Shown here piece after piece: positions 237 to 30,406 of a stretch of 64,000 nucleotides of DNA; the stretch's first letter is position 1, and the number at the start of each line of letters is the position of its first letter. The stretch is from Microbotryum violaceum (Eukaryota). The DNA lies in contig CDLV01000012.1 of the NCBI GenBank assembly GCA_001244265.2, positions 558,001 to 622,000 of the forward strand, read 5' to 3'. The notes under the pieces were generated by a model. The model searched no databases. It saw only the letters and a list, made by a program, of their open reading frames with translations, and was not told the origin of the DNA. The position numbers and the translations under genes are program-made.

Positions 237-3200
237 GTGCCTCCTCGCCGCGCTGCCCGAAGTTATGCCCTGAATACCTGGCTGGCGAACGCGAATTGGA
301 GATGTGTGGTGCGCAAGCTGGTGGATGAATTCCTCAGAGCAATAGCGGATGATCAAGAGTATATTCCGCTGCGAAGTGTGCCTCCGTGCTCGAACAAGGC
401 AATGGAGGTTAATCTGATCGACTACTCGGGTGAGCTCACTTGATCGGGTTCCGCACCAATGAATCCCTCGGAAAGGTCTACGTTTTGCTAAACGACGCCG
501 CTGTCTTGACGTACCTAACAGCACAACAAAGAAAGATCTCATTTGTGCCAAGCAAAAAAGGTGCGATCTCCGATCTCCTGGCAGCTGGATACATGCCTGC
601 AACGCCGGCCGCACCACGATATGCTTTCTTCATTCCGTTTATTAAGAGCCACATGGCTTCTTACTACGTCACCAAGGCGACACCGCCTGCTGAAGCGAAT
701 CTCCCAGATCCAAATTCCACGGTGAGCACCATCACTCTGCATAGGGGATCGCAACATGAACACTTTCGAGGACGCTGACACGCGCCACGACCCTCGCTTC
801 CTGCAGACGCGCATGTCGCCCCACTTGTCAAAGCACTTTTCGGACGCATTGGCTGCCTTCCGACTCTTTGCGGCTTACGTCGACAGCGCGATCCCTCCAG
901 CCAGGCAGCTTACAATGACGTGTTCTGCATGCCAGCACAAGGTGAGCGACCTGGTGCGATGCTTGGCTTCCACCTCACTCATGTGCTTTGCCGGACTCTC
1001 TACACTTTAGATCCAAGAGGAGCCTCCACTGCAGTACACCGCCCAAGTCGCGATTGACGGCAATACTTCGCAAAAGCGTCTGAAAACCAGATACTCTAAA
1101 GTTGGACAGCATATCCACCCCGACCAGCACACCTTTCCGTCAAAGCTGTTCATCCCGCCGGAGATTGTCGACGAAAGCGAGATCATCGCTGTAAGTCGCT
1201 CGAATACTGAGCTCAAAAGTATTTTCAATTTATTGTCTGAAATGTCCTCATATGCCTTCTTCTATCCGGTAACATCCTCAGCGCTTGGCCTTCGCAGACT
1301 CGTAATGGTAAAGGTCGTCGTATCGTTGCAATTAAGAAGAGGGCCGAAGGAGACAAAGGCGCTTGCGCATCAGCCTCGCGGTCTGAGCAGGTGCGTTGGT
1401 TCTACGTGACGGTGCTCCTGTTTTTTGGCGAAGCAAATTGACTTTGACGTGTATCCAGAGTGGTGGGGCCTCCTCAGGCTGGGACGAGACCGGAATCGTT
1501 GCTGCCGTTTGTCGCCATGGGGTCGTATTGGCGGCATGCGACATGATCCAAAGCGGAGAGAGGTGAGCTCGGTGCGAGGCTGAAAGCCCCCGCTCGGCTG
1601 TCCAATTGACCGCAATGCTTGGCTCGCTGGTGCAGTTCGAAATACCCGCTTGCCCTGATCAAACAAGTGCGCGAAGCATTCTCACCGGGCGATCGCCTGT
1701 TAATAGGCTATGATATTGGCTGTGTCCTCGCCAAGACGTTCGAGACAGCGGAGTCGATCGGGAAACGCCAACGTGACCCCGACGCACCAAGCTTTTCGGG
1801 ACAAGCGGCTGCCAAACCGGCCGTGACTTTTTGCTGCGGAATCGGGCAAGGATGTACTCATAGCCACCCCTGCCAGGTAAGTTTCCGGCTCTATGAAATT
1901 TGCGCACCATAATTCCGCCGGACTAACGCGAGTCGATCACTTCATTACTGTGCTTTCACAGCTACAATCACACCCACGCCTCATGGACGCCGCGGGACTA
2001 GAAGACTTTGAAGGCTGTGAACAGGTCTGGTCATTCCTCGACGATTTTGCTGGGTCAACCCGCCTAGCAACGAAGTACAATCGAAAAAGCACGCTTCATC
2101 ACGCCATCATGTACTCAAATCATCGGGTCCTGATGGGTCTAGGTTAGTTAGTCGTTGTTCACTGCTGAGCCGCGCAAATTAAATGGCATGCGCGCCTTTG
2201 CCTTCAGATACTTGGCTATTAGATCGATGGAACTCCGCTTCGGCGGAATCAATCGCCAGTCTTGAGACGATCCGCTTGCTGGCTGAACAGTTTACCTCGG
2301 AAGACGCTTGTGTGGACGCGGGACATATGTGGCTTGAGCAAGAGTGGCAATACTTCATGCACAATGCTACGACTCCATCAAGCAAGCTCACTGCGAGAGA
2401 TTTGCGGGAGAAAAAGCTTTTGGAAGCGCTAGAGAACCGTGACAAGATGTTTGGAGAGCAGGATTCCGGGTGAGTCGACCCGGTCGAGCCTCTGAGTGAT
2501 TTTTGACTGGGTCTGATTCTCCATTAACAACTCGACAGCATCCCTCGCTCCCGCGGGGGCATGGTTGCTTCAAGCATCGCCAACTACACGAGCGTGATCG
2601 CCGAGCTGATAAAGGACGAGGTTCTGCAACTCACCGAAGAGGATCGCGAGAATATAAAACGGTTGGGCCTAGGTTGGCGTGGAGTCGAAGAGATCAGGGC
2701 GCGAGGAGTCGTCCAAAGGATCGAAGGACTGTTGGCCAAGCTCGCGCGTGACTTCATGGCAATAGATCTCGAAGCTGAAGCTGTGAAGAATCGCAGTCAT
2801 GGCATCGGAACGAGTGAGTCGCTGGCTTGGCTCTGGCAGCAGCTCTCCCATCCAATCCATGCTGACCGACTCCACCGACTTTGATCCGGTTGTGCAGATT
2901 ATGATACGCGCAGCATTGGCAGCGTTCGAAAGCGCTACAACCGCGTTGCCACGTCTCTCGCCGAGTACAACAAGCTTGCCGAGACCTGCAATCGTAGATT
3001 GTATACCTTTGAAGAAGTACGTTATGCACACGAATGTTTACTCATCGGCACGCTCATCCTTTTTTTATTCATCTGCAGATGAAACAACTCACCAAAGACG
3101 GCAAGCTTCGAACTGGCTCGAACCTCGGTTGGGCGTCCTCCATCGCCAGAAGTGTGACAGCGGCGGTGTCGCGACGCGAGAGAGCTCTGGAAGAACAGGC

Positions 3201-19300: not shown

Positions 19301-20527
19301 GAACAAGAATGTCGCCGCTATATCAGCTCTGATCGATGACCACGCATACGTGATAGACGGTATCCCGACCCACCTCGGCGATGCTCATCAGGGTGTGCTC
19401 GTCGATCCATCGGGCCCTCCATATCCGACCTAGATGACCCCAGAGGACCTGTGAGGGCCGACTTTCTTCAGGTGCTTCGGCATTCCATATGCGCAATGTT
19501 CGATCGTCAGAACCGGTGAGGAGATATCGACCCGATGGTGAAAAGGCGATGGTAAAGATGGAGCCCTGATGGAAACGAGATGATGAGATGAAGCCATCAA
19601 CGACCGGGCGCACTGTGAGGGGCATACTCTGATACGAACGCGCACGAACCTGGTGTCCGACGAATCTCTTGATTGCTGCATTGTCCAAGGTAATATCTTG
19701 TCCTTGAGATGCGTCGTCGTCAATGACCACATCTTTCAGCCCCCACACCAAGACATCACCCAGAATACTACCACTCGCTATCCGTACGTCGGTCAAGGAG
19801 GTATAGGTCGAGCGGGACAATTCCGAGGACCAGAGCAGAGGTCGAAGTGGGGCGTGATAGGTTCGGATTCGATGGGGTGGAGGAACAGTAACGGATGTCG
19901 ATGCACTCTGGGTAGATGTGGTAACCGAGAATACTTGAAATGAGTTGTGCGCCGTCACAAAGAGAACGTGATCGTCCTGTGGCGAGAACTGGTAAAGGTG
20001 AGCTTGGGGCGGAAGCAGTTAGGGGAGTGTGGGGGTAAGGGGGTCGAGGACGTACCCGAAGGAAAGCACAGCTGAGGATCCAGTCATCAAGCTTGAAGTG
20101 GTGTCTGACATTCACTTGAATTGTTTGCTGTGAATTCAATCTGTGCGTAATTTTCCCCCAAGAGGTGAGCTCGTGTACCCTAACCCGCTCCTCATCCGGC
20201 CCGGACTGACCGAGTGCTCTGCTCCCCGTCTCGGGCTTCGCAAGAGGGCGGCGTAACGACGATCGAGACCCAAGCCGCCTCTTTACCGCCCGCCACGAGC
20301 ACGTTCCAAGTATACGACTCATCAGATACTTCCCTGACAACGATATGGTGTATCCTTTCCCTCTGGAGTACGCAGCATCTATAGACCGGGCTGGAAGAAG
20401 CTCGAGGTCCCAAGAGGTTGACGAGCAAGTCGGTGTGGCTGCCGGCGAGCAGAGTCGGATGGGGAACCGTCGCCAAGGTTGCGAGTGCGGTGATGGGGGC
20501 TGTGATGTGTCGCGATACAAGCGACAT
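16302..20527 (-). CDS. RTT10: WD40-repeat protein of the WDR6/Rtt10 (Trm734) family
   Basis: GHQGSIF...TGSDDRTLRIW, GHLGRIW, GHDGRSLW, HGREIR, HQSGIN, DQRLSIW and C-terminal AGIGIEV, the motif order typical of WDR6. Confidence 0.8.
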
Positions 20528-20668
20528 GGTTGGGGGGGCCGCCCAAGAATTTGAAAAATGAGGGCCTGATCCGAACCAGCGTGGTGTGGTTGAATGCGCG
20601 AGGCACGGAGGAATGAGCCGGCGGATGAGCTGCGAGCGTGTGAAATGACGTGAAGTCCCAAGAGCGAG

Positions 20669-20805
20669 CACCTATGCGGGTCAAAATAAGCCTAACAAAT
20701 ATACTACCCCGCGCGGCGAGTTTAGGGAGCTTTTTGAAGATTTGGCCCAGGAAAACGTTGGTGCGGGCTAGGTGCACCATTGCCCTGCCAACCCCCAGCC
20801 CCCGG
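20669..20805 (+). repeat. Left imperfect TIR of the KDZ element
   Basis: ...CCCCGCGCGG-CGAGTTTAGGGAGCTTTTT...TTTGGCCC...GTTGGTGCGGGCTAGGTGCACCATTGCCCT...CCCCGG aligns with the reverse complement of 30134-30272. Confidence 0.88.
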
Positions 20806-20907
20806 AGGCAAAAGTGGTCACTAATCCGGGCACTTGCTACTTATCCCCGCTAATGGTCCATCTGCCTCAGCACCACGAGTTCCCCCCACTTCCCTCCAAC
20901 CAAGGCC

Positions 20908-23900
20908 TTGCAGGCTCACACCCATCGCTTCAAGCATGGACATCCTACCACACACACCACCACCTCTACAACCTCGCTCAGCATCGCCAGTCGGAACAGA
21001 GAAGGGAAAACGCCTGACAAGACCAAGCGCAAGAAGAGCACGACCGTGAGGAGGAGGAGGAGGAAGAAGGTGACCAGCAGCAACAAGGACACGTTCGAGA
21101 ATGGGGCCACGACGTCGGTCGGAATGGAGGAGGAGGCGAAGACGAAGAATAAGAAGAGGAGGAGATTATGGACCAGGCGAGTACGGAAAAGGGGGCCATC
21201 GTTGTCCCCGGATAGCGAGCTGTTCGACAAGACGTTCGGCTTCAACTTCGGCATTTTCCGCTCTGCAACGAAGAGGCGTCCGAAACGTCAGCCGGGCCCT
21301 CCCCTATCACCATCAGTCCAGAGGTCAACGCGTCGTCGGAAGGAGCATTCGGAGAAATCCATTGCCGGCCTCCACAAATCATCGTCCGAGCCTTGGACTG
21401 ACATTGCCGATGGCGCAACGGCGTGGCCTCTAGACACCGAGACCGGCGGCTTCGAGCACAACTTCAAGCCTAACAGCGCGCCCGACTTTGAGCTCGACTA
21501 CGACTTCGGTCGCGATTTCGGCGGTGGATACTCATCTGGGCCGGAGCATTCGCCATTCCACCCAGACGGTGCTTCTCAAGACCAAGCGCCCTCTTCCCTT
21601 AAGCGATCGCAGATCGAGAGGAACGCCAAGAAGCAGCGCAATCGTCGCCGGAATGCGAGGGCCGAAGCTAAGACTAGGGCGTCAAAACGAGCTGAACTTC
21701 TCCAGGCGTACCTATTGATGAAGAAAAAGGCCAAAGAAGTGCTTCGACAGAGCGGGTTTGTCCCTTCCCCGGACGACGAGGGGTGGTGCAACGCATGTCA
21801 TGAACGCCGAGTCACCAGAAAGGTCCGGGTTGTCGACCTGTTCTTTGCAGGTAGGTGCTTCTGTTGCACATATTTTGTCAATCACCCCTACGCTATCGTC
21901 TTGGACTGATTTGGTATTCCCCAAACATGAGCAGGCATGCGAGAACTACGATACTGTCCATGCTATTCCGAGATCCAAACCCTGGCAGCTCACGGTCTTC
22001 TCCCGACGTCGTCATCTTCAATCCGAAAAAGAGAAGGCATCACCGCATTCACCTTTCGCACGATCGAATATCTCGACACCTACTGGGGGTAGATCCTTTT
22101 GGTATATATGGCATGTCCGAAGCGCTCATTCTCTTTTGGTCCTCTGAATCATCCTCGGAGGATCCTTTTAACAAGGTGGGCTCTTGGACAGGGACAGGCC
22201 GGAAACATTCACTGTTTCTTACAGAAAATATTGGAAGCTTCCCAGGGTCCAACCGTGCGTCAGCATCTTCAAGCCGCAATGGATGAATATCGATTTATGC
22301 AACAGCTGCAGGCTACCTTGACCGCCGAAATTCTCGGCCTCTCCCGCGCGAGCGTCTGGCCGACGTTTGTCCGGCATGTTTTGGGCCTCGGATCGATGAA
22401 GCCGGCAAGAGCGAGAATGACCTCGATGTCATCATTGCTGTCGACGGCAATTTTCAGCATCGACGACTCGCGCGGGCAACTGCTGATCCTCTCAAGTCAC
22501 GTCCAGCGTTATTCCTGCCACCAGACAAGATTCGAAACGAGCAAGCTTTGATCGACGGATCGACTGAAGCGGGCGAGAAGGTACCTTGGTGCTGCTGATG
22601 TTGGGTCACCCGAACCCAATAATGCCTTGACCCGACTGTCTGTGATTGCTAAACGGGCTATTCTATCATACAGGACGAATGCACAGCCAACTGGAAGGCC
22701 GCAGATGGTGGTGTGACCTCCGCTTCGTCAAATGTAGTGGCCGACACAGGCCTCGTTGCTGCAGTGTGCCGTCATGATCATTGCCTGCGACTTTGCAACC
22801 TTCATCAATCAGGTGAAAAGTATGTGTGGACCGGCCATCTGTGACTCCAGGCAAGGACACTACTAAGCGAAGTTGGTCTGCCGCAGGTTAGTATATCCCG
22901 TGTCGCTGTTGAAATGGATTCTCGAAGAAGTTGAAGTCGGAGAAACGGATTGTACTACGGGGCCTGCGCGTACCAGTGACGCTACAAACGTCGGATCCAG
23001 CTCGGGATCGGGCTCCCACCAAAGTTCGAGTCAGGATCGAAGTCGCGTTGGAGTCGCGTATGATATCGCCTGCAACTTATCGTCGCACTTACGCCGTGTG
23101 AGTTTGTTCGTGACACTCAGCCTGACGTTGGCTTAGTTCGTAGCTGAGCAACTCATCTCTCCCCGGTATGCGCAGCGCAATCTTCTGGCAGATCACTTAC
23201 CGCGTCTAGAATTTGCTCTCTCGTCGATGCATGCCTATGCGCACAAGTGGTCCTGCCAGATTGACTTTGATCCGCGCTTTCTACCCAATTTTGGTTTGAC
23301 TGATGGCGAAGGAACCGAGCGCTTGTGGTCGCAGCTTCGAGGCATGATACCCATGAATCGATCGTCGAGTTCCTCCCATCGGCTGGAGAACATCAATCGT
23401 CGAGCATCTGCTTATAACAAGCAGCATCTGGCCGAACTTGGTTCGCTTAAGCGTCCAGTCTTTCATGCACTACCTTACCATGTCGCTGATCTTTGGCGTA
23501 TCGATCATGCCCAGTGACCAAACTTAATTCTCGACTCAAAAACGCAATCAAGCTCAAGGCCGAAGCCGACAGAGTCATTGCTGAGGTCGTTAATCGCTCC
23601 GAATGGACGGTCGCTACCTTCCTTGAACAATGGCACGCGCAACGTGCAGCGTCCAAGCAGATCCCTCTGAAAGAGCAGCGCAAAGAGGTAGCCGAGATGC
23701 GCAACGTCATGTTCAAGCTTGAGCTGGTTAACAGAGACATCGCAGCATGCCGATGGGTCTGAGCTATCGTCGTCGTTTGGGAGTGAGACACGAACCGGTA
23801 ACCTAGCTTCGGTATTCATTTTTCGATTGACACAGGGAAGACCTAGCCTGCGTGAACACCATAGATACGAACAAGCTTATAGAACAGTCGACTAAACTTC

Positions 23901-25103
23901 AACAGCTGGTCAAACAACGGCAGGTTCTTGATGATCGACTGAACTCCTTACGCACATCGGACATAAACATCAGTGTCCTGGACCCTGGTACGTCACTTCC
24001 TTCTTCCATTCTGACCCTTCGGTGTGATCCCCGTTGTCCCCGCTTAGATATTTCAATACCTTTGATTGGCACAGACTATGAACCAGCCTGCACGTTGATG
24101 GTCGCATCTCGCTCGCTGTGGGACGTGGTCGTACAATATCGACAGGGAGCTGAGAGGCTGCGGCTCCCGCGCCTAGGCGGTAAAGCCCTCGGTAGGAAAT
24201 CCATGGTACGAGTCTTCTGCGCCGGCAGAAGGAACGCTGATGTGTAGCAATGCCTGCTCATAGGTACGAAAGCGGCTGGTCTCCTGGTCAAGAATCTTAA
24301 TTCTTTGCGTCCAAGACTCATGAAGGCAGTGGCGATGTATAACGACGAGGTGAAAAAGTATGCTGCCATCCTCGTCAATTCTCAGGATTCCCATCCGATC
24401 TTGAGAACCGAAGGGTACCGCCATCAGCCCCAGAGGATCTCAACGAACTGCTCAAACTCGACATCTTGGCGCCGCTCTGGAACAACGGATTATATAGTCA
24501 TCCCACTGAGCCGTAGGCCTACGATGATGATGTTCGTGTCGGCATTCCAGCAGTATTGTCTCGCGCAAGATGCCAGCAAGAAATCAAGCGACTTGGATGG
24601 GAAGTGCGTCGCATTGGACGGTGGCTGATAAGCCGTCGTAAGAGGTGTCAGCAAGTTCGCCAGCAATTACTCCAACGAGATGAGCAGGATTACTTTGCGA
24701 TGATGATGCTCGAGCAAGAAGAAGAGCGTCTTAGAAATATTGCGCGCCGATGGTTTTCGAAGGGCGGCCTAGATCACCTGTGGGAATGCACCCGGCAAAC
24801 CAGCGAACCGCAAATGGAGGAGTGGGTCGAGCTTCGAATGTGGTGCACCGACGACGCTGATGTTTTTCAACGAACCACAACGGGTGGCTTGCCGGATCAC
24901 ACATGGCCAGACTGCATCAATGATGGGATGGTCGGAGAGTCGGACGACATCACCACGAATCATGACACCCTTCTTGACATCAGTGATCTTCGAGCGATGA
25001 TCTGAGTCATCATTCCGTCGACACTATCGATTACGGCGCCTTCAGTGACGAGATCATCGAGAATTTTGACGAAGACGATGGCGATATTTTTTGGGGGATT
25101 TGA
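20908..25103 (+). pseudogene. KDZ transposase with CxC1-like N-terminal cysteine cluster, disrupted
   Basis: WCNACH...VRVVDL, VCPACFG, IIAVDGNFQHRRL, CTANWKAA, DTGLVAAVCRHDH, SGEK, VAYDIAC, MHAYAHKWSCQ..FDPR...FGLTDGEGTERLWS, HPTEP*AYDDDVRVGI. Lesions: TAG at 24514-24516 and frameshifts near 22345, 24395 and 24990. Start codon uncertain. Confidence 0.92.
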
Positions 25104-27416
25104 TATTGATCATATATAGTTGCAGTCTTTCGCCCAGTTGCTACTTGCAATAGTAAAGAGATCAATGATGCGTTCATTTCGCTAGTAGTTCTACACGTTA
25201 TACGACGCTTTGCCAGGAAGCCGCAACAAGAGCGATCAGACATCCAAGACCCGGCATCGCTAAATCGCTCGATCTTGCGGTGGCTCGCCTAATGTTGCTC
25301 GAGTAAAGCTGGCAGCCGGAGCCCAACACGACCGGTAAGATTTAGAGGAAGAGCGCGCTACACTGAGGGAGTGAACACAAGCGTCCATTGCATCTTTGCT
25401 GCGCTGACTGCGCTGAGATCTCCAACATGTAGACCGCGCTCCCTGCCAGTCAGTCACATGCGCAGTCCGTGTCGTGCGTTGGGTTACACTTCCCAAGCAG
25501 GGATTGCAAAAGTACTTATTATACTCCAACACTGCCGACTACATTTTGATGTTTACTTGAACGAAGTCCTGATCCGGCTCACAGTCCCAACGTCGTACAC
25601 AGGTCTTCTGTTGTGTTGCCACGGCCACTCCGAGCCTCACACTCGACCAGGTCCGTTGAGTGTTTGCCTCGGCACTTGGTTGATGACTTTTCAGACGCGA
25701 GGAACAGAAGTTGATCACCCCTAACATAACAGTCTTTTTCGGTATGATAATATGAATTATCCCTTTCGGCCCTAAAGCAGGGGGCTGGAGAAGCGTCCCA
25801 TCTGGTAAGGTGAGGGATTTTCGTTGGGAGGTGAGGACCGATAATAGGGAGAGAGGGTTACGAATCCCTTGAGTGGTTATTGGTGGCGCGTTAATAAACT
25901 CTTTGCTAAGTTGCTAAGAGCCAGCGTACTGCTTTGTCACAATTCCTTCCTGCGCAGTTCACACACTCACTGTAATCTCGACGCGAAGTACGTCGTCACG
26001 GGCGCTTGCGTTTCAACAGTCGAACTGCAGCAAGTCATAGTCACCCATGCCCAAAGTAATGCGCTGTATATGACTGAACGAAGCCACGAGCGAGTCAGAC
26101 TCACCTTGATACACCCCTTTCTCTGTCGTTGCTCTACGTTTTCTCATCGCATTGCGGCTCGAGAGTTCTGCACGCTATTGTGGCCTGGGCCTCCTTCTAG
26201 TATCGACCGACCGACTGCCCCGCCGTGGTTTTCGGCGATGGCAGGTCATATAGTCTTTTGTGACACCAATCAAGGTTCAAACCCAAGGCGGACAACACGT
26301 CATGTTGGAGTCAGACTGAAAGTACCCAAACCGGGAGGGCGTTTTCAAAGTTCTTTTCGACGGGACATACCGTCTTGTCATCATTGTGATGGTCATCTTC
26401 TTGGTCTTCAGTTGGGGTCTTCAGCTGGGTCTTATAGTTACGACGATGGGTGAATTCAGGATGGGACATGGAAGGAGAGGTCGAGCTGTCGTCTGACCCC
26501 TGTATTGCAGTCCCACCGAATGACCTCACAGTCATCCACCGTCCGATTTTGCGGCGCGCAGGCAGTTAAGGGTTATGCAGTGGCAACCGGTCCGACCTGA
26601 AGGTGAAGTCAGATTGTATCTAAGGGAAGAAGACAATGGTAGGCCAAAAAGTCAAACAGACTTATGCAACGAGACACGGTCAATGGTACGGCGCCTTCAG
26701 ACGAAGCATGGATACAAGGATATGAGGAATGATTAGGAGGGATCGGTTCCAAAGTGTGTTTGAAACGAGAGGAGCAAGAAACGGCGATGAGGTTGAAGTT
26801 GGAAAAGGTGTATGGCCATTTGGTTGTACATCACAACTTCAGAAGAAGAAGAAGGAGAAAGAGGAGATGCGTCGGCCCGAGAGCCATTCTAATTTCGTTG
26901 ACCCAAAGGTAAATAGATGCGCAGAGATGTCGCCTTGCCTGGATGCGAGCGCCACACCGTTGTGCTGCGACCCATGCGGTGCGCCCCGATTCCCTGTAGG
27001 ACAAAGGGGCGGAACGATTGGTTGTGAAGGAAGACTCCAGCGTAATCTCTGGAGGGGGGCCGTAGATGAACGGGATGCCGGCGCCCGGAGCACACAGGGG
27101 CCCCGGGCGCTGGGAGGGGGGAGGGTGGGCGGGGGGGGGGGGTCGAGTATGCCCAGTGATCTTGGCTGAGCCTGACAGAATGAGCATTTTGATCATATCC
27201 TGTTAAGATTAATTGCCACAATCAAGATGGCAGCTGAGACGCTGTATGCGTGCATGACAATCATCTGAAACTAAACTCAAGGATCTACACTGAAAGACGC
27301 GTCACAAACCACAGAGACATAACAAATATCGGTCATCTTGCAGCCGATTCAGAGCATAATATGCCCAAAGAAAGACACAAGAACGGTCTCAATCCATCAA
27401 CGATGTTTTGCTTCAT

Positions 27417-29445
27417 TCATCCTCCGGTCTCCTCCGCCACCCCCTCGGTATTTCTTTCTCTATCTTCTTCTCCGCTTTTTTCTCTGCCGCGTACCTCTCC
27501 GCCTTCGTCCCCGGCTCCACCAAATCTTGGGCTCAGGGGTCCTTCTCCGCCATTCGAGTCATCGTCGCTTGCCTCTGCCTCCGTGTTGTCGTTCGGGTCC
27601 ACCGAGGGTACGATAGCGAGGTGGCCGTGACGGAGGTCGTCAATGATAGCCTTGAGCTGAGCAACGGTTTGCTTGGGCGATGTCTCTGCACTATGATGCA
27701 GAGCCATTTCGTATCTACTCTTCGTTCCGGGCTTGATCCGCAATTTGACACCCAGTGCCTTCAAGCCCTGGGTAGACCATATCATCTTCTTCTGAGGTGT
27801 GAAATCGCCTGTCGATGATCCCGTGTCGGAACGGCGATGTATAGTCTCGAGAGCAGAGTCTGTAAAGACGGAAATGATTAGCACGGAGTCGAGCCCGATC
27901 AGATGCAGACTACTTACTGAGTTGGGCGCGGAACAGAGTGCCGTGCCATTTGCCAAGAACGCCACGAGTAGCACTGTCCATCGAGCGAGTTTTTGCTGAT
28001 AGATGAGACGAAAACATATGTCACATAATTGGTAACGGTAACTTGGTCTCATGCACGTATAACTTGCGATGAAAGGCTCACCCTCTTTCAGATCTGCCGC
28101 TTCATTGGCCTTGAGTGTCTCATCCCAGCTCATCTTGGAAGCAAAATTAGACAACAAGGAATTGCCAGATGGATCCTTGAAGTCGTTGCAGTGAGCCGCA
28201 AATCTGAGCCCACCTATCGAATGCACGGTCGCCTTCGTCGCTGGCGACACGTCGTCTTGATAACGAGGGACAATAAAGGCCAGGGTTTCCACTCCGTACA
28301 GCTTGGACATGCGTTGCGCCAGGTCTTGCAATTCTGCAATGTACTTTTTGCATTGCTCCATCCGAGTTGGGGAAGGAACGTCGGATGGCGACCGTGTGAT
28401 GATGGTGGGTGGTACGATCGAAGTGAAAGTCGTATTATTTCCCGCCTCTGCCACTGCAAAAGCCGCGCGAACAAGCTCTTCATCGTCCTCGCCAATTTGG
28501 GCAGATCCGAGGTCCCCCTGGTCTCTCAGGAAGTTCCAGAGTTGAGCGGCAAGTTTGGTGATGGATTGCGCTTTCGACTGATCCAATTCTGAGCACGTTT
28601 GACACACCCAGGGTATGTAAGAACAGACATTGCGGACGCAGCGGTAAGCATAAGCGAGAGCGTAGGAGAGTGGAGTGGGCATGACCGGAAGCGCCCGGAG
28701 GACCGACTCACCCTTGCTTGCTCGCTGGTGTAAAACCTTGATTACAGGGTCCGAGAGAAATCTAGACCACGCATTGCCCTTCGAAGCGAGCCTGTTGAAC
28801 TTTTTGACGGCCTGAACGAGCCTTGCATGGGATATGCCGAGTTTCGCGGCCATCTTGAGCTCCGAGTAATATCTTCGAGCGGCCCAGCGCTTCAGCGAGG
28901 TCCACTTTCTTTGACTCATACGACCGGTCGCGTTCCGATGCGAGCCATGTATGGCCGTCCAGAGCCTGATAGCTCTTCGATGGTCGATCGCGATATCTTC
29001 AAACTCGCTCTCACTGTGACTGTGACTGTCACTTTCACTGTCACTGTCGTCAGCCGAGGATTGACTGGAATCGCCCAAATTGGGCTCGTCAGAGTCGGAG
29101 TCGGACGAAGGGGTTTGGGGCACGGGCATGCGCCGCTTTCTCTTCCGAGTCGGGCGTCGAGGCGGTTCATCCAGAACTGTACTGGCTTGTGTGGAGGCTC
29201 GACGGCTTTGATCGTCCCTCCGACCTGCAAGAGGTGTGAGAGAACTGAGAATTCTTCAGCTGTCCGTCAGGATTGAGTAGATAGAAGGATGAGGTTGATG
29301 ACTGGCACTCTGCTCTCAGCCCTGCTACAAGGGATCTCAGTTGGCACACCAGACAAGAGCACTCACTCGGATGAGCGCCAAAGGAAATAGACTCTGCTGG
29401 AGAACCTTCCCTAGATCCCACGCGTATGTCTGACGGTCGCGTCAT
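27417..29445 (-). CDS. Transposon cargo protein: basic NLS-like segment, acidic tract and HMG-box-like helical region
   Basis: Open 570-codon frame 27417-29129 with in-frame introns (e.g. GT..AG 28711-28589). The frame extends upstream through RKRKRR, with a probable first exon from ATG 29445. Spliced segment NAWSRFL...SITKLAAQLWNFL resembles an HMG box. Confidence 0.65.
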
Positions 29446-30133
29446 GGTGGAGCAACACAATTAGGCCCATGAGGAGGGAGATGTGAGGCGGGGAAACGCG
29501 TCCACATACCTCCAGACGGCAATAGCATCGATATTTGTTCAACAGGCGCGGGGAGGTTTCAATGTATGGAGATGCGGGGCGTGGCGTGGGTCAAGGGTGC
29601 GCGTTGTCGCGTTGACGTGAGTGCGCAGAGGTCAAAGTGTTAACGCAGAGCGCTCGCCAATCTGAGCTCCGCGTGCGGCCGCACAGCCCCGCCTCAATTT
29701 TGCCTCTTCAATGACTCTCTAGGCATTGATGCAGGACTGATTGGCGCTGGACCCAAGTCGATCGTCCGAAGGGGCTTCACTAGATATCCGTTTTATATAA
29801 AAAGGTGCACACCGTTCAGAATAAGCGTTTGTCTGCTCGAGGACCGATCCAGGATTTCAGGGACCACGACCGATCCCTCCCTCGGGCCCAATAGACGCGG
29901 TGTATACTCCCTCCGTCGAATATGAGAAAAGGTCTACACAGGATCTGTTGTACACATATCCGTTGATGGTATACCGAACTACACGAACTGAATGGATGGA
30001 CTGAGTACGACAAGCTGTATGACATTTATGACATAATTCGAACTTGCGACGGAGTCTTCGGAAAGTGTTATTCGTGATGATGGTGAGTCTTACACGAACT
30101 AGTGGCCCCTTATTACTTATGAGGTGCACTGCG

Positions 30134-30272
30134 CCGGGGTGGGATGGGGAGGGGAGGGCATTGGTGCACCCGACCTGTACCAACCTCCAACCGGGCCAAA
30201 AAACAAAAAAGCTGCCTTAACTCGCCCGCGCGGGGAAGCTCATTTGGCTGGGTTAACGGACCTGCCGATCTG
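30134..30272 (-). repeat. Right imperfect TIR of the KDZ element
   Basis: Reverse complement reads CAGATCGGCAGGTC...CCCCGCGCGGGCGAGTTAAGGCAGCTTTTTT...TTTGGCCC...GTTGGTACAGGTCGGGTGCACCAATGCCCT...CCCCGG. Confidence 0.88.
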
Positions 30273-30406
30273 AGAGCGAGACAGGCCAAAGACAGGCGCG
30301 TCGCCGCTCAGCTCAATCAGGCCTCAGCATCCTCCCACCGCCTACTCGTCACCGAACCACTTCATCTTCATCGTCCCCTCCCCTCCCCTCTCCTCGCCTC
30401 CCGATC

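What the first reader, a model, noticed from the sequence alone, without database searches (positions are those of the whole stretch)
20661..30280. Fully delimited 9.6-kb KDZ transposon with CA..TG ends, ~137-bp imperfect TIRs and an exact 8-bp TSD
Seen: AGAGCGAG flanks both ends. The first and last ~137 bp align as diverged inverted repeats with conserved blocks (GGTC, CAAAT, CCCCGCGCGG, AGCTTTTT, TTTGGCCC, GTTGGT, GGTGCACCA.TGCCCT). Known: Zisupton elements make 8-bp TSDs, and fungal KDZ relatives are usually recognised from the transposase gene alone. Inference: this copy defines the termini and full cargo of a fungal KDZ family, and the conserved TIR blocks are candidate transposase-binding sites.
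Basis: partly seen in the sequence, partly recalled or inferred. Interest (0 to 1): 0.85.

Follow-up and report, generated by a model that had tools for sequence, protein, structure and literature searches.

The report
Delimited but broken KDZ transposon copy
This is one complete-length but transposase-dead copy of a roughly ten-copy KDZ "cut-and-paste" DNA transposon of anther-smut fungi (Microbotryum), with the same size, inverted ends and 8-bp target duplication already described for KDZ elements of Cryptococcus, so it is a new family member rather than a new kind of element.

Summary
AGAGCGAG flanks a 9,604-bp insertion (20669-30272) that starts CA and ends TG. Its ends are imperfect inverted repeats of about 133 nt (68% identical, far above shuffles). 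Contigs from four public runs show the interior at roughly 5-14 times the depth of the flanks. Other copies diverge into unrelated flanks exactly at 20669 and 30272.

The element carries two genes:
- **Transposase (+ strand):** a CxC1+KDZ gene of about 1,200 aa with about 7 short introns.
- **Accessory gene (- strand):** a 481-aa, 4-exon gene found only in Microbotryum and always beside the transposase.

In this copy the transposase is broken by about five frame changes and a TAG stop. The accessory gene is intact. The copy could therefore move only with transposase supplied by other copies.

No empty site was found, and target duplications of other copies could not be tabulated because no genome is held.

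The novelty claim is outdated. Cryptococcus KDZ1-3 (9-11 kb, 139-241-bp inverted ends, 8-bp duplications, CxC1+KDZ, extra unknown genes) and the rust element Zisupton-1_PGr are already delimited. The architecture is Dileera-like, not canonical Zisupton.

Verdict: a real, ordinary new member of a known kind. The accessory gene is the only open question.

The parts
20661..20668 (.). Left copy of the 8-bp target-site duplication AGAGCGAG
   Evidence: Read directly; exact match to 30273-30280, neighbouring bases differ.
20669..30272 (+). Whole KDZ-class transposon copy, 9,604 bp, CA...TG
   Evidence: Boundaries from the duplication and inverted ends. Also from the repeat-depth step and from loose ends at exactly 20669 and 30272 in public-run contigs.
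20669..20801 (+). Left terminal inverted repeat, about 133 nt, imperfect
   Evidence: 92 of 135 aligned columns identical to the reverse complement of the right end; score 48 against 9.5 +/- 1.5 in shuffles.
20707..20716 (.). Conserved box CCCCGCGCGG (palindromic core CCGCGCGG) in the left inverted repeat; partner at 30226-30235
   Evidence: Shared 10-mer at 39 and 38 nt from the two tips. Not conserved in a subfamily seen.
20771..20779 (.). Conserved box GGTGCACCA (palindromic core GGTGCACC) in the left inverted repeat; partner at 30162-30170
   Evidence: Shared 9-mer at 103 nt from both tips.
20902..25116 (+). CxC1+KDZ transposase gene, about 1,200 aa in intact relatives, about 7 short GT..AG introns. 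A pseudogene in this copy.
   Evidence: tblastn of P0002 (1195 aa) and P0008 (1227 aa) covers 20905-25116 in changing frames. Frame changes lie near 22084, 22185, 22342, 24407 and 24988, with TAG at 24514-24516 where both relatives have W. At 22084, 22342, 24407 and 24988 the laid contigs carry one more base than the window. The start codon is uncertain: P0002's ATG is AAG here, and P0008's ATG at 20936 is in another frame.
21781..22135 (+). Region corresponding to the CxC1 cysteine cluster (PF18802) of P0008 residues 280-370
   Evidence: Pfam on P0008 gives 28.8 bits against a cut-off of 26.9. Coordinates were transferred through the tblastn alignment and are approximate.
22425..23412 (+). 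KDZ transposase catalytic domain (PF18758), split by introns
   Evidence: Pfam on window ORFs: 23137-23517 at E 2.6e-19 (profile 139-215) and 22287-22598 at E 0.0071 (profile 2-41). Full domain in P0008 at E 4.9e-48.
25117..27416 (.). Variable spacer between the two convergent genes; no gene recognised
   Evidence: No Pfam hit for 6 ORFs tried here (25293-25724, 25848-26453, 26726-27169 and three minus-strand ORFs). No Atlas hit for ORF 25848-26450. No Rfam match. Copies differ here by a 347-bp indel, 120-152-bp replacements and a 13-bp indel. The TTG/TCG ratio of 1.36 is the highest in the element.
27417..29129 (-). Accessory gene, intact: 4 exons (29129-28712, 28588-28082, 27995-27918, 27859-27417), 481 aa
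   Evidence: Spliced reading has no internal stop and is identical to P0021 at 457 of 481 columns and to P0018 at 469 of 485. GT..AG at all three introns. All 18 homologues are from Microbotryum.
30140..30272 (-). Right terminal inverted repeat
   Evidence: As for the left repeat. Loose ends of 3, 7 and 4 contigs at 30272.
30273..30280 (.). Right copy of the 8-bp target-site duplication AGAGCGAG
   Evidence: Read directly.

Best explanation
The interval 20669-30272 is one full-length copy of a multi-copy, two-gene DNA transposon of the KDZ (Kyakuja-Dileera-Zisupton) class. It is resident in Microbotryum anther-smut fungi.

Inferred mechanism, by analogy with KDZ elements seen to move in Cryptococcus:
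- The CxC1+KDZ transposase recognises the ~133-bp imperfect inverted ends.
- It excises the element at the CA...TG tips and inserts it into a target cut with an 8-bp stagger.
- Repair of the stagger gave the AGAGCGAG duplication.

This copy landed in the short spacer between a WD40-repeat gene (minus strand) and a plus-strand gene whose ATG is 128 bp from the right duplication. Its transposase gene has since decayed, with about five frame changes and one TAG stop. It is non-autonomous and could move only with transposase from other copies.

The second gene is a 481-aa protein restricted to Microbotryum. It is convergent with the transposase and intact here. It has stayed open and linked to the transposase in a subfamily where both proteins have diverged. 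I take it to be an element-serving factor, most plausibly a DNA-binding helper. Its function is not shown.
For: **Shown directly**
- Exact 8-bp direct repeat at the tips, and significant inverted ends.
- KDZ domain on window ORFs (E 2.6e-19).
- Intact relatives P0002 and P0008 carry CxC1+KDZ and map colinearly onto 20905-25116.

**Multi-copy status and shared termini**
- Element contigs against flank contigs have depths of 187-290 vs 20-23 (X1), 205-339 vs 24-26 (X12), 57-68 vs 3.5-7 (X14) and 22-28 vs 3.4-4.1 (X15).
- Contigs diverge at exactly 30272 (3, 7 and 4 contigs) and at 20669 (2 contigs), with low agreement among their flanks. These are different insertion sites.

**Decay of this copy**
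- Frame changes near 22084, 22185, 22342, 24407 and 24988, plus TAG at 24514-16.
- At four of these sites the laid contigs carry one more base than the window.

**Accessory gene**
- Intact in this copy.
- All 18 of 18 homologues are from Microbotryum.
- An exhaustive profile search of 1.84 billion representatives found 6 hits: 5 from Microbotryum and 1 spurious jellyfish PAN-domain protein.
- Locus tags pair the accessory gene with the transposase gene within 1-3 gene numbers in 5 cases: C010g05986/87, C001g00911/13, C045g12203/05, Chr6-3g09011/13 and C008g05269/72.
- The most diverged pair keeps both genes: 72% identity for the transposases and 61% for the accessory proteins.

**Same architecture in elements seen to transpose**
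- C. neoformans KDZ1-3 are 9.2-10.9 kb, with inverted ends of 139-241 bp, 8-bp duplications, CxC1+KDZ and extra ORFs of unknown function (passages read).
Against: - Only this one copy's target duplication could be read. No genome is held, so an 8-bp duplication as a family rule is untested.
- No empty site was seen. 0 of 4 runs gave a joint across 20668/30273.
- The flank contigs of X1 and X12 reach only 23-27 letters into the element. That is under the tool's 31-letter rule for a bridge.
- Four of the indels sit in or next to short homopolymer runs. Short-read contigs drop rare variants, so assembly error in the window copy cannot be excluded for them.
- At 22084 only part of the X1 depth (190 of 832) carries the extra base.
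- Whether any single copy in the genome has a fully open transposase gene is not shown.
- For the accessory protein there is no family hit above threshold. HTH_50 scored E 0.0046, below its cut-off, and a DnaA domain IV match scored E 0.55. The fold model is useless (pLDDT 35.5).
- No transcription data are available.
Confidence: 0.85

Rival explanations
1. The copy is autonomous. The apparent frameshifts are consensus errors of the window's assembly inside a repeat, and the transposase gene is really open.
For: Several indels lie at short runs: GGGGG after 22084, CCC after 22342, CC after 24407. The short-read contigs cannot show the state of this particular copy, because rare variants are dropped.
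Against: - The unique flanks of the window agree with X1 contigs at 0 differences over about 9.5 kb, so the assembly is accurate.
- The copy also differs from the laid contigs by 357 listed-plus-unlisted substitutions over the laid stretch, mostly transitions.
- It carries a TAG for W substitution at 24514-16, which is not a homopolymer error.
- Neither annotated start codon is usable in frame.
Confidence: 0.08
2. The accessory gene is passive cargo: a captured or de novo ORF carried along with no role in transposition, like the passenger genes of larger mobile elements.
For: There is no detectable domain and no homologue outside the genus. The Cryptococcus papers treat the extra ORFs of KDZ1-3 as unknown cargo-like sequences. 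KDZ lineages in other fungi have repeatedly captured TET/JBP genes.
Against: - The gene is present beside the transposase in all 5 pairs that locus tags allow one to check.
- It stays open, with 61% identity, in the most diverged subfamily.
- It is intact here although the neighbouring transposase has decayed.
- A 2,013-bp deletion derivative that removes part of it exists in X12. This shows only that it is dispensable in cis.
Confidence: 0.4
3. The 8-bp flanking repeat is a coincidence and the insertion arose by another route: recombination between repeats, or a nested composite of two elements.
For: AGAGCGAG-like purine-rich words are commoner than random in this window, at 8 occurrences in 128 kb of both strands.
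Against: - The boundaries were fixed independently by the divergence points of the contigs. An exact 8-mer abutting both is expected about once in 65,000 trials.
- Depth is even across the whole element in all four runs. Both genes are linked in two other species' annotations.
- The architecture matches mobile Cryptococcus KDZ elements.
Confidence: 0.02

Closest known systems
Cryptococcus neoformans KDZ1, KDZ2, KDZ3 (Huang et al. 2024 bioRxiv 10.1101/2024.08.15.608186; Gusa lab 2025 bioRxiv 10.1101/2025.05.19.654958; passages read)
   Same: Size class (9.2-10.9 kb against 9.6 kb). Long inverted ends (139, 169 and 236-241 bp against about 133 bp). 8-bp target duplication. Transposase with CxC1 plus KDZ domains. 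Additional ORFs of unknown function. A few to about ten copies per genome.
   Different: - The Cryptococcus elements were caught transposing into FRR1. Here mobility is only inferred.
- The transposases are distant: the best Cryptococcus hit, from C. floricola, is 29% identical.
- The Microbotryum accessory protein has no detectable homologue outside the genus.
- The inverted ends here are only 68% identical.
Zisupton-1_PGr of Puccinia graminis, reassigned to the Dileera lineage (Kojima 2025, PMC12730594; passages read)
   Same: Host in the Pucciniomycotina. 8-bp target duplication. KDZ transposase. Rust CxC1+KDZ proteins are among the nearest non-Microbotryomycete relatives of this transposase, at 27-33% identity.
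   Different: That family carries a TET/JBP dioxygenase gene. No TET/JBP domain was found in any ORF tried here. Its terminal sequences are in a figure and supplements that I could not see.
Zisupton proper (fish and other eukaryotes; described as 8-bp target duplication, inverted ends, and CxC4 + SWIM + KDZ transposase)
   Same: 8-bp duplication, inverted ends, KDZ catalytic domain.
   Different: No SWIM or CxC4 domain in 3 of 3 family transposases scanned. CxC1 is present instead.
Kyakuja-1_LB / Kyakuja-2_LB of Laccaria bicolor (Kojima 2025)
   Same: CA...TG tips; KDZ transposase.
   Different: Kyakuja makes 7-bp duplications, has no inverted ends and carries TET/JBP.
PIF/Harbinger two-gene transposons (recalled; mentioned as encoding a transposase plus a Myb/SANT DNA-binding protein)
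   Same: Two-gene layout, in which a second, non-catalytic protein may be needed for transposition. This is an analogy for the novel reading only.
   Different: Unrelated transposase, 3-bp or TA duplications, and a recognisable Myb/SANT domain in the helper protein. None is recognisable here.

Membership tests
KDZ class of DNA transposons | Transposase with the KDZ catalytic domain (Pfam PF18758) | tested here: met
   Window ORF 23137-23517 scored E 2.6e-19 and 70.2 bits against a cut-off of 26.6. Full domain in P0008 at E 4.9e-48 and in P0002 at E 5.7e-48.
KDZ class of DNA transposons | N-terminal CxCn cysteine cluster before the KDZ domain | tested here: met
   CxC1 PF18802 in P0008 scored 28.8 bits against a cut-off of 26.9. 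P0005 (26.8) and P0002 (22.9) fall just below. The region is present in the window copy but was not detected on its fragmented ORFs.
KDZ class of DNA transposons | Terminal inverted repeats | tested here: met
   About 133 nt, 92 of 135 columns identical, score 48 against a maximum of 15 in 500 shuffles.
KDZ class of DNA transposons | 8-bp target-site duplication (Zisupton/Dileera type) | tested here: met
   Met for this single copy. Other copies could not be tabulated: no genome is held and read laying gives only mixed consensus flanks.
KDZ class of DNA transposons | Several copies sharing the same termini at different sites | tested here: met
   Depth step of about 5-14x. Loose ends at exactly 30272 (3, 7 and 4 contigs) and at 20669 (2 contigs), with flank agreement of 0.48-0.59.
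Zisupton sensu stricto | Transposase with CxC4 and SWIM zinc-finger domains besides KDZ (as stated) | tested here: not met
   Pfam at E<=0.01 finds only KDZ and CxC1 in P0008, P0002 and P0005.
Dileera lineage | Placement inside the Dileera clade in a transposase tree with labelled references | not tested
   No labelled Dileera, Kyakuja or Zisupton reference proteins could be fetched. Indirect evidence only: CxC1+KDZ as in C. neoformans KDZ1-3, which were placed in Dileera, and nearest outside relatives in Pucciniales and Microbotryomycetes.
Kyakuja lineage | 7-bp target duplication, CA..TG tips, no inverted ends | tested here: not met
   The duplication is 8 bp and inverted ends are present. 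Only the CA..TG tips agree.
CACTA/EnSpm-Mirage-Chapaev group | 2-5-bp target duplication and a CMC-type transposase | tested here: not met
   8-bp duplication. The transposase matches KDZ and no other Pfam transposase family.
TET/JBP-carrying KDZ elements | A TET/JBP dioxygenase gene inside the element | tested here: not met
   No TET/JBP hit in 20 element ORFs of >=100 aa, nor in the accessory proteins P0016 and P0033.

The most novel reading that the evidence does not exclude
The Microbotryum-restricted 481-aa protein is an obligatory second transposition factor of this KDZ family. On this reading it is a helix-turn-helix-like DNA-binding protein that recognises the position-conserved palindromic boxes in the terminal repeats (CCGCGCGG at about 40 nt and GGTGCACC at 103 nt from each tip) and recruits the CxC1-KDZ transposase. 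KDZ elements with 'extra ORFs', including those of Cryptococcus, would then be two-component systems like PIF/Harbinger, each lineage with its own fast-evolving helper.
Probability: 0.2. Interest if true: 0.55.

Novelty: new member of a known kind. Interest (0 to 1): 0.3.

Why it matters
The finding supplies exact termini, a target duplication and a two-gene map for a KDZ family in Microbotryum. [quoted passage not shown] My searches found no paper describing a Microbotryum KDZ element.

That is useful for repeat annotation, and for studies of transposon load on the non-recombining mating-type chromosomes of these fungi.

It adds little to the biology of KDZ elements. The same architecture is already documented, with observed transposition, in Cryptococcus. 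The one question with wider reach is whether the conserved accessory ORFs of KDZ elements take part in transposition.

Tried and rejected
- **Empty site:** 0 of 4 laid runs show a joint across the element. In X14 and X15 the flank contigs stop short of the junctions, at 20034/30407 and 20225/31415, so these runs say nothing either way. In X1 and X12 the flank contigs enter the element by only 23-27 letters, below the tool's 31-letter bridging rule.
- **RNA:** no RNA holder was listed among 24 runs. X15 is only guessed to be RNA and shows no joints at the introns. There is no evidence on expression.
- **Metagenome scans:** the right tip (23 nt) and the left tip (24 nt) gave 0 matches each.
- **Other copies in the window:** none by blastn of the element or of the terminal repeats.
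- **Fold of the accessory protein:** mean pLDDT 35.5 from a 14-sequence alignment. It was too poor for any fold search, so none was run.
- **Atlas look-alikes:** only unnamed Basidiomycota clusters.
- **PDB profile search:** best E 0.059, for a phage Psu protein, so nothing usable.
- **Spacer:**
  - ORF 25848-26450 has no Atlas hit.
  - The element region has no Rfam family.
  - The 347-bp indel segment 25574-25920 has no inverted ends or duplication of its own.
- **RIP-like TCG-to-TTG hypermutation as the cause of decay:**
  - The element's TTG+CAA/TCG+CGA ratio is 0.87 against 0.64-0.72 in the flanks, and its CpG observed/expected is 1.01.
  - Differences from other copies run equally in both directions.
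  - Only 2 of the 40 listed differences are of the TCG type in the window.
  - The idea was rejected as a major factor.
- **Supplements:** not opened (stated closed). Table S1, Data S1 and Figure 1 of PMC12730594, and the SI datasets of the Cryptococcus papers, hold terminal sequences that could bear on similarity of the termini.
Full report
**1. The observation**

AGAGCGAG stands at 20661-20668 and again at 30273-30280. The bases before and after the two copies differ, so the direct repeat is exactly 8 bp. Between them lie 9,604 bp that begin CA and end TG.

The first 160 nt, aligned with the reverse complement of the last 160 nt, give a local score of 48. Five hundred shuffles gave 9.5 +/- 1.5, with a maximum of 15. 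Over the first 133 nt, 92 of 135 columns are identical (68%). Beyond that, identity falls to 87 of 181 (48%). The repeat finder reports the same arms.

Two of them have palindromic cores and sit at the same distance from both tips: CCCCGCGCGG at 39 and 38 nt, and GGTGCACCA at 103 nt. The outermost 30 nt are poorly matched, at 17 of 31 columns.

**2. Independent test of the boundaries and of copy number**

No genome is held for this window. I therefore searched public runs with window:15669-25668. Twenty of the 24 listed runs hold part of it, in 8 studies, and none is on record as RNA. I then laid the contigs of four runs under different organism codes on window:15000-34000.

- **Depth.** In all four runs the contigs between about 20700 and 30220 are much deeper than the flanks. 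The figures are 187-290 against 20-23 (X1), 205-339 against 24-26 (X12), 57-68 against 3.5-7 (X14) and 22-28 against 3.4-4.1 (X15). The tool warns that summed depth is not a copy number, so 'about ten copies' is rough.
- **Shared termini.** Contigs run on into unlike sequence exactly at 30272 (3, 7 and 4 contigs in X1, X12, X14; agreement among their continuations is 0.48-0.59). They do the same exactly at 20669 (2 contigs in X14).
- **Empty site.** The other test failed to yield data. No joint across the element was seen in any of the 4 runs. The flank contigs of X1 and X12 enter the element by 23-27 letters, which is suggestive of occupancy but below the tool's 31-letter rule. Those of X14 and X15 stop short.

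Scans of metagenome contigs with either tip found nothing. The window holds no second copy.

**3. The genes**

Pfam on 20 ORFs of at least 100 aa inside the element finds the KDZ transposase domain on two plus-strand pieces: 23137-23517 at E 2.6e-19, and 22287-22598 at E 0.0071. Nothing else is credible.

*Transposase.* A search with the stronger piece returned 14 proteins. Eleven are from Microbotryum silenes-dioicae or M. saponariae, at 55-99% identity. Two long ones, P0002 (1195 aa) and P0008 (1227 aa), carry CxC1 (PF18802) followed by KDZ (PF18758) and a C-terminal extension of about 500 aa without a family. They map colinearly on 20905-25116 of the plus strand. About seven short gaps in the alignment have GT..AG borders.

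*Accessory gene.* On the minus strand, a 612-codon open frame (27417-29255) matches 18 proteins, all from Microbotryum. Comparison with the majority gene model shows a 4-exon gene: 29129-28712, 28588-28082, 27995-27918 and 27859-27417. All three introns are GT..AG. The spliced product is 481 aa, has no internal stop, and is identical to P0021 at 457 of 481 columns.

*Spacer.* The 2.3 kb between the two convergent genes shows no gene. It is the part where copies differ structurally.

**4. State of this copy**

Relative to P0002 and P0008 the reading frame of the transposase changes near 22084, 22185, 22342, 24407 and 24988. A TAG stands at 24514-24516 where both relatives have W.

At 22084, 22342, 24407 and 24988 the laid contigs carry one more base than the window. 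At 22342, 24407 and 24988 this holds for all depth in all four runs. At 22084 it holds for all depth in X12, X14 and X15 but for only 190 of 832 in X1.

Neither annotated start codon is usable in frame: P0002's ATG reads AAG here, and P0008's lies in another frame.

The copy also differs from the laid contigs at several hundred substitutions, mostly transitions in both directions. It shows no marked TCG-to-TTG bias. I conclude that the transposase gene of this copy is dead while its termini and accessory gene are whole.

One caveat applies. Several indels lie at short homopolymer runs, and short-read contigs cannot show this copy's own state, so assembly error is not excluded for them. The TAG and the flawless agreement of the unique flanks with X1 (0 differences) argue against that.

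**5. The accessory protein**

It has no Pfam family. The best match is HTH_50 at residues 83-112, with E 0.0046, which is below the cut-off.

A profile of 14 members, searched against 1.84 billion representative proteins without a word index, found 6 proteins. Five are from Microbotryum. The sixth is a jellyfish protein with PAN domains, which I regard as chance. Atlas neighbours are unnamed Basidiomycota clusters. The PDB profile search gave nothing below E 0.059. The AlphaFold model is unusable (pLDDT 35.5).

What can be said is genetic:
- Locus tags place the gene one to three gene numbers from the transposase gene in five cases, across two other species.
- In the most diverged pair both proteins have drifted together and both frames are open: 72% identity for the transposases and 61% for the accessory proteins.

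That pattern fits a gene that serves the element. Whether it does so as a DNA-binding helper, as the weak helix-turn-helix hints suggest, or otherwise, is inference.

**6. Mechanism**

Established for the class, from passages of the two Cryptococcus preprints and of Kojima 2025: KDZ elements are cut-and-paste transposons. Zisupton and Dileera types make 8-bp duplications. Kyakuja makes 7-bp duplications and lacks inverted ends.

Shown here:
- the product of one such insertion;
- shared termini among copies;
- deletion and indel derivatives, namely a 2,013-bp internal deletion in X12 and a 347-bp indel in all four runs.

Inferred:
- that the CxC1-KDZ protein of intact copies acts on the ~133-bp ends;
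- that this dead copy can be moved only in trans;
- that the position-conserved boxes are binding sites. Against a strict need for the CCCCGCGCGG box, 2-3 contigs per DNA run share the last ~33 bp of the right end but have a different sequence where that box lies (loose ends at 30240).

**7. Comparison and novelty**

The closest documented elements are C. neoformans KDZ1 (10,944 bp, inverted ends of 236-241 bp), KDZ2 and KDZ3. The two preprints give 10,053 and 9,218 bp or about 9.2 and about 10 kb for these two, with inverted ends of 139 and 169 bp. All have 8-bp duplications, CxC1+KDZ transposases and extra ORFs of unknown function, and all were observed to insert into FRR1.

The element here has the same plan in another subphylum. 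Its nearest transposase relatives outside the genus are in other Microbotryomycetes (Rhodosporidiobolus, Phenoliferia) and in rust fungi, at 27-39% identity.

It lacks the SWIM and CxC4 domains given as canonical for Zisupton. It does not fit Kyakuja. I did not test the Dileera assignment with a labelled tree.

Microbotryum repeat surveys pool elements with inverted ends and do not name KDZ in the passages I read. Searches for Microbotryum together with KDZ or Zisupton returned no paper on such an element.

The finding is therefore a new member of a known kind.

**8. Verdict**

Interest is modest, at 0.3. The copy is a clean, datable insertion and a good seed for annotating the family. It is a dead copy of an already understood type of element. 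The only thread with wider reach is the role of the lineage-specific second gene.

Noticed in passing
window 434-2144, + strand: A second, only distantly related KDZ gene lies at the left edge of the window. ORF 434-778 matches CxC1 (E 4e-4, below cut-off) and ORF 1610-1912 matches KDZ (E 2.1e-9, 37.9 bits). Rust and Microbotryum intermedium KDZ proteins match 1408-2144 at about 20-51% identity in three frames. It has no terminal repeat of the main family nearby. Its own ends were not sought and may lie beyond the window.
   Followed up: partly
window 25574-25920: About a third to three-quarters of one copy-pile's depth in all four runs skips this 347-bp segment (joint 25573>25921, depths 120, 148, 37 and 21). 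Some copies replace 25727-25878 with 4-31 other letters. The segment has no inverted ends or duplication of its own.
   Followed up: partly
window 26061-28073: One X12 contig (depth 83.5, about three flank-depths) joins 26060 to 28074. This is an internal 2,013-bp deletion derivative lacking the 3' half of the accessory gene.
   Followed up: no
window 30240-30272 and 30219: Contigs in X1, X12 and X14 (2-3 each) match only the last ~33 bp of the right end and differ upstream, where the CCCCGCGCGG box lies. One X15 contig diverges after 30219 into a related but different terminal sequence. This suggests subfamilies with diverged terminal repeats.
   Followed up: no
window 30280 (X12) and 20665 (X15): Two X12 contigs match through the 8-bp duplication and diverge only after 30280. 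One X15 contig with a foreign left flank matches from 20665. This could be chance extension of alignments, a target preference, or duplicated junctions. It is unexplained.
   Followed up: no
window 19323-20018 (-) and 30408 onward (+): The insertion sits between divergently placed genes. ORFs to the left carry WD40 repeats. The ORF to the right starts with an ATG 128 bp from the duplication and reads like a histone-fold protein by eye, but no Pfam family was found on its first exon.
   Followed up: partly
window 29011-29048 and 26403-26433: There are small tandem repeats inside the element. (TCACTG)x6.3 encodes the acidic/serine-rich N-terminus of the accessory protein. A 13-nt unit x2.5 lies where other copies have a 13-bp indel.
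   Followed up: no
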